This document shows, piece by piece, positions 2,766 to 62,515 of a stretch of 64,000 nt of DNA. This DNA is from Eledone cirrhosa. Lineage: Eukaryota. Location of the stretch: NCBI GenBank assembly GCA_964016885.1, contig OZ024741.1, positions 52,514,001 to 52,578,000 of the forward strand. The letters run 5' to 3'. Position numbers and translations under genes: made by a program. Position 1 is the stretch's first letter, and every line of letters starts with the position of its first letter. A model generated the notes under the pieces. The model was not told the origin of the DNA. It searched no databases and was given only the letters and a program-made list of their open reading frames with translations.

Positions 2766-3385
2766 GTTAGTGGGTATGTGTGTTTTCTGCCTATGTGCGT
2801 ATATGAACGTAAAATTGAGGAGGAGTTATGTATGTTAAATGATGAAGCATACATGCGTACTTGCGCATGTGCGCATTCCACACACATACACATGCATACA
2901 CACACATACATACACACACACATACACATACTCTCAGACACCGAGTGTGTCCATATAAAGAAATGCAATTGCTGACATGCCTATACATTAGTTACGCTTT
3001 TTAACTATGGTATATATATGCATGTTTGCTGTGTGGACATCTGTATATATATATATATATATATATATATATATATATATATATATATATATACATATAT
3101 ATATATATATATATATATATATACATATATAATATATATTATATATATCTATATAAAGATATATATATCTTTAAATAGATATAGATATATATCTTTATAT
3201 ATATATATATATATAAATATATACATATATATATATATATATATACATATATACATATATATATAAATATATACATATATATATATATATATATATATAT
3301 ATAAATATATACATATATATATATATATATATACATATATATATATATAATATAAGATCAAAAGATGGTTAAAGGAGTTCCATGT

Positions 3386-3454
3386 ATTTTATTATGCGCA
3401 TTTCAAAAACAAACATCATCATGCAATAATATTTGTGTCTTCATCAGATAAAAC
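3386..3454 (-). ncRNA. Type I hammerhead ribozyme (mirror copy)
   Basis: Reverse complement of the 3575-3644 motif with intact core. Confidence 0.78.
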
Positions 3455-3574
3455 AGGAGAACATGATATGAAAGCTAAAAAACACCTGTGGACAGTGCAG
3501 TTTTAAATCAACATATGTTGATTTAAAACTGCACTGTCCACAGGTGTTTTTTAGCCTTCATATCATGTTCTCCT

Positions 3575-3644
3575 GTTTTATCTGATGAAAACACAAATAT
3601 TATTGCATGATGATGTTTGTTTTTTGAAATGCGCATAATAAAAT
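3575..3644 (+). ncRNA. Type I hammerhead ribozyme
   Basis: Stem I TTTTAT/ATAAAA, core CTGATGA (3582-3588), paired stem II, GAAA (3626-3629), palindromic stem III TGCGCA, cleavage triplet AUA. Confidence 0.8.
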
Positions 3645-4061
3645 ACATGGAACTCCTTTAACCATCTTTTGATCTTATATTATGTATACTCCTGTCCTAC
3701 AAACTGTAGAGTGCTTCTTATCCGATATCTGCATTGCTTTATTGTACTACAATAAAACTCACCTCCTACATATATATATATATATATATATATATATATA
3801 TATATATATATATATATATATATATATATATATATATATATAAATATATATATATATATATAAATATATATATATATAAATAAATATATATATAAATATA
3901 TATATATATATATATAAATATATATATATATATATATATATATAAATATATATATATATAAATATATATATATATATATATATATATATATATATATATA
4001 TATATATATATATATATATATATATATATATATATATATAAATATATATATATATATATAT

Positions 4062-4199
4062 ATTTAAATAGATAAATATGGGTGTATCCGCCGTAAATAT
4101 ATTTCATGTGAACGTATATATATATAATATGCATATATTTCAACATACGTTCACATGAAATATATTTACGGCGGATGCACCCATATTTATCTATTTAAA
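4062..4199. repeat. Inverted repeat with ~55 bp arms beside (TA)n, probably a truncated PLE hairpin
   Basis: TTTAAATAGATAAATATGGGTG...GTGAACGTAT matches the reverse complement of 4145-4199; only a GAAA-TATA-TT half-motif remains. Confidence 0.6.
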
Positions 4200-4479
4200 G
4201 CTTTAAAATAGTTACTTTAAATGTGTGGCACATATTCCACAATACTGTTGTGGTCACAAATAATACTTCTTCGATGTCTGACTTCTTGTAGAGCTTTCAC
4301 TGTAGAAGTCAGTTTAATACATTCCAACCTCATGGAATATAAAACCACAAGTTAGGATATACTTGAACTTTGTGTTGTGGACCAATAAATAACTCATGAA
4401 TTTCACAGTAGTTTAGCTTTTGTGGCATATAATTTCCTATAGACTAATGGAAAATTCGAGTGTGGTAGTCACTTATTAA

Positions 4480-4680
4480 TACGAGGGTTGGCAAAATGTT
4501 CATAGGCTGACCAAGATACTCTCATGGAATGACCAAATGAGGTATATTTTTCAACATAGTCCCTGTAAAGAAACAATGCTATTATTAATAAGAACAATTG
4601 AAATTAATGTATGCAGGATTTCACAACTCTAGCATCACTCCTCCATAGTCTGCCTATGGACATTTTAGCTCCCCCTCATA
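4480..4680. mobile_element. Mariner-type MITE
   Basis: TA-flanked degenerate TIRs TACGAGGG..AAAATGTTCATAGG / CCTATGGACATTTT..CCCTCATA. Confidence 0.65.
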
Positions 4681-5115
4681 TCTGTTTGTCTACGAAAATG
4701 TAGGCTGTGGTATTCAATCTGTGGATTCAAGTTACTTTACTACTGACCCTAGGCGGTCAACAACGACAAAAAATGGATTAAAAGCTTGTTATAATTTGAT
4801 TTCAGTTTTAACGAGAATAAGACCTTTGCGCCCGAAATCTTGATAACCTGAAAAGAAAATTATATATATGCGCACATTACCTCTTTACACATTTTCTCGC
4901 CCCCACCACACACGGCGACAAATGATATATTAACGTACGGGGAATATATGATGGTGTTGACCTCAAACCGTTGCAGTCCTTATACACTGACCTTTTTATC
5001 TCTTTGTAGACTCTCATCTAGTTAATCATACTTCCACCAACTTGGTTCTGATTTCAATTTTGCTTTTATTACCAATTACATGGTATTATTATAATTATTA
5101 TAATTATTATTAAAG

Positions 5116-5335
5116 GGTGGTGGATTGGCAGTATCCGTAGAGCTTCGGACAACATACTTTGTGGCATATAGTTACGTCCTTTTACGTTCTAAGTTCAAAT
5201 CTCGCTGAGATTAGTTTTGCTTCTCATCCTTACGGAGTCGATAAATAAAGTACCAGTAATGCACTGGTGTCGATTTAATCAACTTTCTCCTCCCCCAAAA
5301 TTGTTGGCCTTGTGCCTAAACCAGAAGCCATTATG
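5116..5335 (+). mobile_element. tRNA-derived SINE, family A
   Basis: GGTGGATTGGCAGTATC A-box-like head, GTTCAAATC B box, conserved body, (TTA) tail; many copies in window. Confidence 0.85.
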
Positions 5336-5345
5336 ATTATCACTG

Positions 5346-59528: not shown

Positions 59529-60164
59529 AGATGTATAATACGTATAATATAGAATCATGTATTTACAGTAGCTCGCGTCAAAAATGATCACCCATAGGCA
59601 TTTTCTATTCAAACCACATATTGACACGTAAAAAACGCCGTTAATATAAACACAGGGTAATTAATACTAAATCAGCGTATTTCCACCGGTGTTAACATTG
59701 TTGACCTCAATAGCACATCGAGTTTTAACACACCTTATTAAAACACACACACACACACACACACACACATATATATATATATATATATATAAGCACATAC
59801 ATACATACATATGTATATCTATATATCTATTTTCTTTCTCTCTCTCTCTCTCTCTCTCTCTCTCTCTCTCTCTCTCTCTCTCTCTCTCTATATATATATA
59901 TATATATATATATATATATATATATATATATATATATAATGAGATCCTTGTATAATTGAGAATTATACGGTAAAATAAATCAGCATCAACAAAACTAACA
60001 TTGACAACAGCAATGGTAATTTGTAAAGTCGAGGCCGACAACACGAACAATAACAACAAGTCAACATTTTAACTGAAGACTGTGAGTTATGTTGCGTGTG
60101 TATGTGTGTTTAAGGAGATATAATTTAGATGTAAAGTGTGTGAGGTATAATCCAAACAAGACGA

Positions 60165-60365
60165 ACAACAACTATAACTACACAACGACTAGAACTACTA
60201 TAACAACAACAACAACAACAATAACTACACAACGACTAGAACTACTATAACAACAATAACAACTATAACTACACAACGACTAGAACTACTATAACAACAA
60301 CAACAACAATAACTACACAACGACTAGAACTACTATAACAGCAACAATAACAACAACAACAACAA
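60165..60365. repeat. Four-copy minisatellite AACTACACAACGACTAGAACTACTATAAC + (AAC)n
   Basis: Seen directly. Confidence 0.85.
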
Positions 60366-60991
60366 CTAAATACACAATGTCAATAACAACAACAAGAGTA
60401 AAGAGTCCGTATATGATTAAAAAGGAAAGCAAAGCAAAAATACACTTAAAAATTCAAATAGACGAGAAAAAGAGAGTAAATATAGAGAAAATAACCACAT
60501 AGTGAAGAAAAGCTAAGCAACAAAGTAAAAAAGAGGGGAAAAACAAATCAGATCCTGGAGCACAATAGCTTGACAATATTTTAATATGGCGGAAAAACTC
60601 TTGAGATAAGAAGACGTGTTATGGCGAGGTTTCGATAGACACTACAGCTTCCCATTGTTGTTTTCTTTTGCTGATATGTGTGAGTGAGTGCGTGTGTCCG
60701 TCCGTGTGTTTGTATGTGTGCGTATGTGCGTATGTGTGTATGTGTGTATGATTGTATGTATGTATGTTTGTTTGTTTATATGTATGTTGTATGTATATAT
60801 GTCTGTATGTATGTATGTGTGTATATATGTATGTGTGTTTGTTTGTGTATATGTATGTATGTATATCTGTATGTATGTCTGTCTGTCTATCTGTATATAT
60901 ATATATATATATATATATATATATATATATATATATATATATATATACAATGATATTAAATAAATGGAAACTATATTTATAAAACCATACT

Positions 60992-61054
60992 TATTTTATT
61001 ATATATATTTCAAGGGTACCAAGTCACATTGGTACGCTTTCATCAGATAAAATA
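60992..61054 (-). ncRNA. Type I hammerhead ribozyme (mirror copy)
   Basis: Reverse complement of 61198-61260. Confidence 0.8.
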
Positions 61055-61197
61055 CAAAGTTTGTTTTATAAATAGGGACATACCTATGAAAATCATACCT
61101 TATCGATTGGATATTCACTGGATAGTCTATCTAGTGAATATCCAACCGATAAGGTATGATTTTCATGGGTATGTCTCTATTTATAAAACAAACTTTG

Positions 61198-61260
61198 TAT
61201 TTTATCTGATGAAAGCGTACCAATGTGTCTTGGTACCCTTGAAATATATATAATAAAATA
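61198..61260 (+). ncRNA. Type I hammerhead ribozyme
   Basis: TATTTTAT-CTGATGA-AAGCGTACCAA..TTGGTACCCTT-GAAA-TATATA-TA-ATAAAATA. Confidence 0.82.
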
Positions 61261-61442
61261 AGTATGGTTTTATAAATATAGTTTCAATTTATTTAATATC
61301 ATTGAATATTTACTCCAGTAAACTGCTGAGCGCCCTAAATCAGTTATAAACATTTATATTTGTCGGACTTCCAACAAATTAAATACCCCTTCTATTTATA
61401 TATATATATATATATATATATATATATATATATATATATATA

Positions 61443-61682
61443 TTAGGTATAGGATTACCCAAGATGTAGTAATGGTTAATTACTACACTGGATATGGTTG
61501 ACGTACGAGTTATGGAAGAATTGTTGAAGAAACTTAGTTCCTGATCCTTCTGTATTCCGGAGTGTATATAAAGAATGAATAATAACAGGTAGACATCATA
61601 AAAAGGTAATTTATTCCGTGTGCGCACACGGAATAAATTACCTTTTTATGATGTCTACCTGTTATTATTCATTCTTTATATA
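61443..61682 (-). mobile_element. Hairpin element: perfect 118 bp palindrome (61565-61682) + tail, in (TA)n
   Basis: Apex GTGTGC|GCACAC; unique tail on the left. Confidence 0.7.
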
Positions 61683-62242
61683 TATATATATATATATAAT
61701 ATATATATATATATATATATATATATATATATATATATATATATATATATATATGCCTATATAGATATATGTAATATATGAACGCTAAAATGTATGGGAA
61801 TGTGGCGTAAGCTAGGAGAGATTGGTTAAAGGAGGATACACCACACACACACACACACGCACATATATATACAGCGTTGGCCAGTTCTTTGAGGACGCGT
61901 TTATTAAAAGTTCTTTTTTCTAATTTGCTCTTATTATGCTTTCTTTTCAGATAAATGATGACAGACATTAAGCTAACCCAAATAGAGCTCATCCTTCATG
62001 ACCTATGCGTCTTGCAAATGTCATCAAAGAACTGAGAAACACACACATGTATATATGATGCCCGGGTTAAATCGGAGGTAATAACAGTAAGGTACTCAAT
62101 ATATTAGTAGAGTGTATACAACAAAATTTGTTTTATATATATATATATATATGTGTGTGTGTGTGTGTATATATATATATGTGTGTGTGTGTGTGTGTAT
62201 ATATATATATATATATATATATATATATATATATATATATAT

Positions 62243-62515
62243 ATGGGATAACAAGTTATCGTTATAGGTAATCCAGTTAGAGGTTGTGAGTACGCTGCAT
62301 CGTGGATAGTTTTAACGTACGGCTCTGTTTGACTCAACAAGATGCTTCCACAGTTATGCAGCGAGTTCGCAGTGATTTCTATGCAGGTTATACTTGGAGT
62401 AATAATAGTTAAAGAATGAAGAGTAACATGGCTGGCTGTACAATAAGGGCTTTATTTAAAGTACTTTAAATACAGCCTTTATTGTACAGCCAACCATGTT
62501 ACTCTTCATTCTTTA
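62243..62515 (-). mobile_element. Hairpin element: 106 bp palindrome (62410-62515) + tail, in (TA)n
   Basis: Apex AAAGT|ACTTT; shares terminus TTCATTCTTTATA with 61565-61682. Confidence 0.7.

What the first reader, a model, noticed from the sequence alone, without database searches (positions are those of the whole stretch)
3347..62515. Recurrent 'palindrome + one-sided tail' hammerhead mini-elements in (TA)n tracts
Seen: at least seven inserts (3347, 18936, 28367, 53752, 60948, 61565, 62410; possibly 4062) with largely unrelated sequence share one architecture: a fold-back palindrome, a unique ~45-170 bp tail on one side only, and (TA)n flanks. Those at 3347 and 60948 carry intact type I hammerheads on both strands. 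The 5.65 kb PLE palindrome has the same layout plus an RT/GIY-YIG ORF. Established: PLE terminal repeats carry minimal type I hammerheads with palindromic stem III and can be inverted with a tail. Inference: these form a multi-family class of non-coding, ribozyme-bearing hairpin retroelements made by PLE machinery, either by self-primed fold-back at each insertion or by mobilisation as units. Because both strands encode the ribozyme, a transcript in either direction contains one, in competition with a long dsRNA hairpin.
Basis: partly seen in the sequence, partly recalled or inferred. Interest (0 to 1): 0.85.

Follow-up and report, generated by a model that had tools for sequence, protein, structure and literature searches.

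The report
Twin-primed Penelope ends record RNA cap
These short mirror-image inserts are back-to-back end pieces of several jumping-gene families of a known type (Penelope-like, Hydra clade), likely made afresh at each site by copying the element's RNA onto both cut DNA strands, and an extra G at many of their inner ends likely records the RNA's cap, a clue to how this poorly understood class copies itself.

Summary
The palindrome-plus-tail layout is real at five of seven sites. 18936 is degenerate, 53752 has a 365-bp spacer, and 4062 has no family. Intact hammerhead motifs occur only at 3347 and 60948. All five clear inserts trace to longer RT+GIY-YIG Penelope-like elements with Hydra-clade motifs. 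They are 5'-truncated inverted pLTR ends plus the known tail, an architecture already published, not a new element class. The copies favour two separate priming events over fold-back or unit transposition. In tail-selected copies the tail-less arm is the longer in 17 of 25 adjacent pairs and the tailed arm in 1; in 7 the arms do not overlap. In the two hammerhead families many arms stop at one initiator-like base, often preceded by a G where the parent has C (34 of 76 junctions; 12 of 17 non-parent junctions). This suggests run-off to the cap of a sense RNA, against the published antisense self-priming idea. No RNA data were available. A cleavage-site hot spot, tested in one family, was not found. 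This scan reached similar twin-priming and RNA-start readings in other genomes.

The parts
3347..3516 (-). Family A tail-less arm (pLTR from the inferred RNA start to the pLTR end), hammerhead core at 3447
   Evidence: >=40 full-length copies at 91-98%
3513..3683 (+). Family A tailed arm; begins at the initiator-like A (3513) and overlaps the other arm by ATAT
3574..3645 (+). Type I hammerhead motif: stem I 8 bp, CUGAUGA, long stem II, GAAA, palindromic stem III, predicted cut after 3637
   Evidence: cleavage untested
3684..3771 (+). Family A tail (88 nt), then (TA)n
   Evidence: continuation into an ORF not seen in 99 tail ends examined
12338..12418 (-). 81-nt tail of the family C PLE palindrome; equals the sequence that follows the pLTR and leads to the ORF in tandem copies
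12419..15097 (-). Left arm of the 5'-truncated family C PLE (RT C-terminal part + GIY-YIG + 3' UTR)
15099..17995 (+). Right, tail-less arm; ORF 15115-16536 with YRDD, CxCX5C, AYIG, CxxC, CxH; 196-bp insertion at 17312-17507; hammerhead-like fold with a non-canonical core at about 17886-17983
18933..19335 (.). Old degenerate palindrome + ~90-nt tail, degenerate hammerhead on the - strand; family not searched genome-wide
28367..28747 (+). Family C mini-insertion: inverted pLTR end + tail, apex in the palindromic stem III loop (28476), then pLTR end, tail, ORF start (ATG 28677) and a second pLTR end (28715-28747)
53752..54706 (.). Inverted repeat with 365-bp spacer and ~50-nt one-sided extension; no hammerhead found; membership untested
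60948..61126 (-). Family B tail-less arm, ending at the inferred RNA start; hammerhead core at 61046
61127..61304 (+). Family B tailed arm; hammerhead 61198-61260, predicted cut after 61252
61305..61397 (+). Family B tail; runs on into a PLE ORF in 22 of 28 junction loci
61443..61682 (-). Family D: palindrome 61565-61682 + ~120-nt tail; begins 1 nt after the predicted hammerhead cut of the parent, core absent
62245..62515 (-). Family E: palindrome 62410-62515 + ~160-nt tail; apex at a self-complementary hexamer at the predicted cut of the parent, core absent

Best explanation
The inserts are head-to-head pairs of 5'-truncated ends of at least five Hydra-clade Penelope-like element families, likely built afresh at each (TA)n site by two separate target-primed reverse transcription events on opposite strands, which often likely run to the capped 5' end of a sense RNA. 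Shown: the arms are pLTR ends of RT+GIY-YIG elements; the tail is the leader that follows the pLTR (families B, C, E); arms are often unequal or non-overlapping; in A and B many arms stop at one base, often with an extra G. Inferred: (1) the RNA starts at an initiator inside the pLTR; (2) the endonuclease nicks both strands; (3) one cDNA starts at the pLTR end (tail-less arm) and one 80-160 nt further 3' (tailed arm), as the two start sites of the Anolis PLE do in vitro; (4) each cDNA stops at the cap, copying it as an extra base, or earlier; (5) the two cDNA ends are joined through short homologies with small templated insertions. The products are likely dead footprints. A read-through transcript is predicted to form a long duplex that masks the ribozyme.
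For: Parent ORFs on the same strand upstream of the arm: A 5 of 9 extended loci; B 3 of 8; D 3 of 25 and E 3 of 25; C directly. Tail runs into the ORF: B 22 of 28, E L216, C. Tail-selected samples (30 A + 30 B): 25 adjacent inverted pairs, 7 equal, 17 tail-less longer, 1 tailed longer (P=1.4e-4), 7 without overlap. Within-copy arm divergence 1.4% vs 2.7-3.4% between copies (A) and 2.5% vs 3.6-3.7% (B). Apex junctions differ between copies. L011 and L028 pair arms of different subfamilies. 12 of 25 tail-less arms start within -3..+12 of the same base. Extra G, B: 34 G / 42 C of 76 junctions with AT-only upstream, 17 G / 8 C directly after pure (TA)n. Extra G, A: 12 G / 5 C in non-parent context vs 2 G / 81 C in parent context, first 100 of 1562 matches (counted by hand; Fisher P=5e-10). 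In short-read contigs 5 of 8 listed joints leaving position 3516 with extra letters begin with the complementary C. Two-strand extension, two start sites and a predicted dimer: PMC11167929. Transcript starts in the upstream pLTR: PMC2377424. Untemplated G as a cap mark in L1 and SVA: PMC4859970.
Against: No RNA run was available, so neither start site nor cap is shown directly. An RT can add non-templated bases at any RNA end. In perfect palindromes the G is ambiguous because of junction homology. None of 28 ORF-linked B copies begins with the extra G, only 2 begin within 10 nt of the site, and 11 extend more than 15 nt upstream of it, so other templates (multimeric or circular) are also used. 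Six A copies share a left-arm-only change at each of two columns; one matches the query and may reflect ranking bias, the other is unexplained. Unequal arms could partly come from later deletions at the apex. The subfamily of the window's A copy has no long member among 16 sampled arms, and at least seven long arms were mislabelled short in that tree. No tail-to-ORF junction was seen for A (0 of 99) or D (0 of 21).
Confidence: 0.72

Rival explanations
1. Same two-strand priming, but the templates are short capped transcripts from solo pLTR+tail copies with an internal promoter. The start-to-tail unit (260-275 nt) would then be a SINE-like non-autonomous family, with the palindrome rebuilt at each insertion.
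For: The Penelope promoter is internal (PMC2377424). Short copies are abundant. One A sub-branch has 16 short arms and no long one. No cap-G start among 28 ORF-linked B copies.
Against: Short and long A arms interleave on the tree (13 label changes; 0% of 200 bootstrap trees separate them; labels imperfect). In vitro the Anolis protein needs ORF sequence downstream of the start sites (PMC11167929), which short copies lack.
Confidence: 0.14
2. Self-primed fold-back: one cDNA (or an antisense RNA, as proposed in PMC3846280) snaps back at a short palindrome and copies itself; unequal arms come from later deletions.
For: Perfect or near-perfect apexes in the window lie at self-complementary sites (3514, 28476, 62462). 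Arms are more alike within than between copies.
Against: The 17:1 length bias and 7 non-overlapping pairs; arms from different subfamilies; extra G on the sense strand.
Confidence: 0.09
3. The whole palindrome + tail moves as a unit from master loci (hairpin RNA or a DNA route).
For: At least 40 near-full-length look-alikes for A and for B; a few shared left-only variants.
Against: Those hits are the best matches to a palindromic query. In tail-selected samples only 7 of 60 copies have equal arms. Junctions differ from copy to copy, and no substitution column separates left from right arms by majority.
Confidence: 0.04
4. Assembly or library artefact.
For: Palindromes can arise in long-read libraries (own knowledge); no listed contig piece spans a whole insert.
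Against: Arms differ by 1-24%, one arm of the large element carries a private 196-bp insertion, and short-read contigs hold apex joints of the same kind (possibly the same sample).
Confidence: 0.01

Closest known systems
Hydra clade of C-terminal EN+ Penelope-like elements (Craig et al. 2021, PMC8557442; includes Hydra-1_Obim from Octopus bimaculoides)
   Same: RT + C-terminal GIY-YIG, CxCX5C linker, DKT, RW(R/K), terminal CxxC and CxH, (TA)n target, hammerhead in the 3' end
   Different: Five distinct families here (endonuclease region 36-48% identical to each other); identity to Hydra-1_Obim not tested; families C and E have non-canonical cores
Inverted 5'-truncated copy + one-sided tail of EN+ PLE insertions (PMC8557442 Fig. 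2 legend; PMC3846280)
   Same: Head-to-head truncated copy, tail on one end only, palindromic junctions, solo pLTRs
   Different: Tails are 80-160 nt rather than 30-40 nt; often no ORF at all; junction data point to two primings on a sense, capped RNA rather than antisense self-priming
Poseidon PLE of Anolis in vitro (Frangieh et al. 2024, PMC11167929)
   Same: Both strands nicked and extended at AT-rich DNA; two internal start sites bracket the tail; uncleaved RNA is the main template
   Different: Different clade; in the parts read, run-off to a cap and inverted insertions are not addressed
Animal non-LTR retrozymes (Li et al. 2026, 10.64898/2026.07.22.740005)
   Same: Short non-coding PLE derivatives with type I hammerheads
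   Different: Retrozymes are head-to-tail tandems with a ribozyme in every unit; these are head-to-head pairs and most lack the core
L1 twin priming and 5' untemplated G (review PMC4859970)
   Same: Two-strand priming gives an inversion; an extra G marks the cap
   Different: Here both arms start near the same 3' point, so they usually overlap and form a palindrome

Membership tests
Hydra-clade PLE | Single ORF with RT and C-terminal GIY-YIG | tested here: met
   Window ORF YRDD + AYIG; parents of A, B, D, E match it by tblastn. Pfam gave 0 families.
Hydra-clade PLE | CxCX5C linker | tested here: met
   Present in C and in A, B, D, E parents
Hydra-clade PLE | DKG changed to DKT; RWK motif; GxKF/Y not conserved | tested here: met
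   L087 (family C): DKT, RWR, no GxKF/Y; DKT also in B ORF L281. N-termini of A, D, E not examined.
Hydra-clade PLE | No CCHH inside the EN; CxxC and CxH near its end | tested here: met
   CNLC and CKH found; absence of CCHH read by eye
Hydra-clade PLE | (TA)n insertion preference | tested here: met
   92 of 99 A, 72 of 80 B, 20 of 21 D, 32 of 33 E tail ends run into microsatellite by a strict pattern (some loci counted twice)
Hydra-clade PLE | Phylogenetic placement with reference Hydra RTs | not tested
   No reference proteins were fetched
Type I hammerhead ribozyme | CUGANGA / GAAA / NUH core with stems I-III | tested here: met
   Both arms of A and B; D parent by eye; C and E parents deviate in the core
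Type I hammerhead ribozyme | Self-cleavage | not testable with these tools
   No assay; no truncation hot spot at the predicted cut in E
Non-LTR retrozyme | Head-to-tail tandem units, each with a ribozyme | tested here: not met
   Window inserts are head-to-head; a 233-bp tandem of family C at L065/L066 lacks the first half of the core
Non-LTR retrozyme | Circular RNA intermediate | not testable with these tools
   No RNA holder listed

The most novel reading that the evidence does not exclude
PLE reverse transcriptases prime internally near the 5' end of their own capped mRNA on both target strands and make short 'strong-stop-like' cDNAs ending at the cap. Abortive pairs give thousands of mini-palindromes; the same products, when followed by a second copy, would regenerate the promoter-bearing upstream pLTR, for which PMC2377424 notes no obvious mechanism. 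The extra G would then map PLE transcription starts from DNA alone.
Probability: 0.45. Interest if true: 0.68.

Novelty: new member of a known kind. Interest (0 to 1): 0.45.

Why it matters
How PLEs form their inverted and tandem ends is an acknowledged open question (PMC8557442, PMC3846280, PMC11167929). This genome holds thousands of young insertions whose junctions tell the models apart: arm-length bias and mixed-subfamily arms favour two-strand priming, and the extra G favours a sense, capped template over the published antisense self-priming idea. It gives a precise, cheap prediction (capped 5' ends at one named base per family). The elements themselves are ordinary transposon debris, though as a mass of near-perfect hairpins they may be a large source of double-stranded RNA.

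Tried and rejected
Rfam scan: only microsatellite/miRNA noise, no hammerhead among the 150 of 199 rows shown. Pfam: 0 families for the window ORF. Apex fixed by hammerhead cleavage: suggested by the window copies of D and E, tested for E only; 21 of 26 matches kept the parent's two bases before the cut and 5 did not, so no hot spot; D not testable because its upstream bases resemble the target. A fixed start for family C: the recurring alignment start was mostly a subfamily difference. Circular or tandem master for A: none of 30 copies selected for a non-TA base after the tail ran on into family sequence. Cap-G start on ORF-linked B copies: 0 of 28. RNA: no RNA holder listed, which is no evidence either way. 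Laying contigs on B showed no joints at the start site among the rows listed. The short-versus-long tree is weakly resolved and partly mislabelled. Target-site duplications cannot be read inside (TA)n.
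Full report
Observation. A palindrome scan and direct reading confirm hairpins centred at 3514, 28476, 61125, 61623, 62462 and 15098, each between (TA)n tracts with a one-sided extension. 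Self-alignment shows 18933-19244 as a 76% palindrome, 4063-4199 as a 91% palindrome with (TA)n on one side only, and 53752 as an inverted repeat with a 365-bp spacer. A type I hammerhead descriptor finds both arms of 3347 and of 60948 plus one weak site, against 0-1 sites in each of 20 shuffles. The other inserts have no intact core. Rfam showed no hammerhead in the 150 of 199 rows listed. The genome is 3.0 Gb; an octopus-like host is my inference and was not tested.

Each clear insert belongs to a large family. First-look candidates were 697 (A, 3347), 3180 (B, 60948), 3345 (C, 28367), 1565 (D, 61565) and 2705 (E, 62410), 40 scored in each. 4062 has no family. 18936 and 53752 were not searched genome-wide.

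What they are. C is 92-94% identical to the end of the 5.65-kb element. In other loci the same pLTR end is followed by the 81-nt tail and then the ORF, so the tail is the leader that follows the pLTR. For A, copies extend upstream of the apex into a shared 3' UTR, and 5 of 9 extended loci carry a same-strand RT/GIY-YIG match. For B, 3 of 8 extended loci do, and the tail runs into a PLE ORF in 22 of 28 junction loci. D and E each have 3 of 25 loci with the endonuclease region upstream, and their parents carry hammerhead-like folds just upstream of the window apexes. The E tail runs into an ORF at L216. All five parents have the CxCX5C linker; C has DKT and RWR and lacks GxKF/Y. These are the features given for the Hydra clade in PMC8557442 (section 11, passages and supplement rows read), which lists an octopus member and a (TA)n target. 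The five families are 36-48% identical in the endonuclease region. The inverted truncated copy with a one-sided tail is described there and in PMC3846280 (passages).

Unit or fresh assembly? The best BLAST hits to A and B look like one unit, but this is partly selection by the query. Their apex junctions differ from copy to copy, with small templated insertions. Arms are closer within a copy than between copies: 1.4% vs 2.7-3.4% in A and 2.5% vs 3.6-3.7% in B, 30 copies each. No substitution column separates left from right arms by majority. Against this reading, six A copies share a left-only change at each of two columns.

Fold-back or two primings? I sampled by the tail end alone: 30 of 105 matches for A (which also required C or G after the tail) and 30 of 571 for B, the first listed in each. 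Of 25 copies with an adjacent inverted arm, 7 have equal arms, 17 have the tail-less arm longer and 1 the tailed arm longer; in 7 the arms do not overlap (17:1, P=1.4e-4). Neither arm can then be a copy of the other. L011 and L028 pair arms of different subfamilies. This fits the Anolis PLE, which nicks and extends both strands, starts at two internal sites that bracket the tail and is predicted to be a dimer (PMC11167929, parts 1-2 of 4 read). Later deletions at the apex could mimic some cases.

Why a shared apex? In A and B many arms stop at one base, a C-A step resembling an initiator (consensus recalled): 12 of 25 tail-less arms start within -3..+12 of it. The parent has C before it. Among B junctions with six A/T bases upstream, 34 of 76 have G there; directly after pure (TA)n, 17 have G and 8 have C. 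In A, the first 100 of 1562 matches give 12 G / 5 C outside the parent context and 2 G / 81 C inside it (counted by hand). Short-read contigs show many joints leaving 3511-3516 for scattered positions in the other arm, and 5 of 8 listed joints from 3516 with extra letters begin with the complementary C (possibly the assembly's own sample). An untemplated G is the accepted mark of a copied cap in L1 and SVA (PMC4859970, passages), and the Drosophila Penelope transcript starts in the upstream pLTR (PMC2377424, abstract and passages). I infer run-off to the cap of a sense RNA. Limits: no RNA holder was listed; palindromic junctions are ambiguous; none of 28 ORF-linked B copies starts with the G and 11 extend well upstream.

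Ribozyme. PLE hammerheads with palindromic stem III are known, probably act as dimers and cleave weakly in vitro (PMC4209133, passages). In the folding model the whole A and B inserts fold at about -273 and -275 kcal/mol with stem I probability 0.00; single arms give 0.08-0.10 (tertiary and dimer folds are not modelled). In either read-through direction the ribozyme arm follows its antisense arm. The window copies of D and E begin at or 1 nt after the predicted cut, but a genome-wide test for E showed no hot spot.

Non-autonomous lineage? Short and long A arms interleave (13 changes; no bootstrap tree separates them), but support is weak, at least seven labels were wrong, and the window's sub-branch has no long member. 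A SINE-like source is not excluded. Retrozymes are tandem and carry a ribozyme in each unit (10.64898/2026.07.22.740005, parts 1-2 of 5 read; its supplements are closed), which these inserts do not.

Novelty. Architecture and clade are published. I found no paper on a cap-derived G at PLE junctions in searches with the terms; the library lacks most subscription journals. Notes of this scan on other genomes already reach twin-priming and RNA-start readings (unchecked; consulted after my own tests). Verdict: new members of a known kind, with useful mechanistic evidence; interest 0.45.

Noticed in passing
window 35935-41488 and 42092-47482: Two decayed tandem LINE copies, each with an upstream ORF and an endonuclease-RT ORF (L1/Tx1-like; label recalled).
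   Followed up: no
window 17312-17507: 196-bp insertion in the right arm only of the large palindrome; looks SINE-like (label recalled), with a similar stretch near 52160-52250 by eye.
   Followed up: no
window 52442-53346 (-): Fragments of another non-LTR-type ORF with a cysteine/histidine motif (family recalled, untested).
   Followed up: no
L065/L066 (C28:22.82 Mb): Palindromic array of 233-bp tandem units of family C (pLTR end + tail + leader), four per side: a retrozyme-like array lacking half of the hammerhead core.
   Followed up: partly
L147, after the B tail: Family B tail joined directly to the last part of a family C tail, suggesting a template switch between families.
   Followed up: no
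L214: Seven tandem 59-bp copies of the family E tail-less arm in one insertion.
   Followed up: no
L011, L055: Copies with the tail on both arms.
   Followed up: partly
families C and E parents (e.g. L067, L215): Hammerhead-like folds with conserved stems but non-canonical first core strands across many copies.
   Followed up: partly
window 4063-4199 and 26203-26241: Palindromes beside (TA)n tracts; the first has no family in the genome, the second was not searched.
   Followed up: partly
L093, L108, L112, L134, L192: Same-family insertions clustered in neighbouring (TA)n tracts, often the tract flanking an older copy.
   Followed up: no
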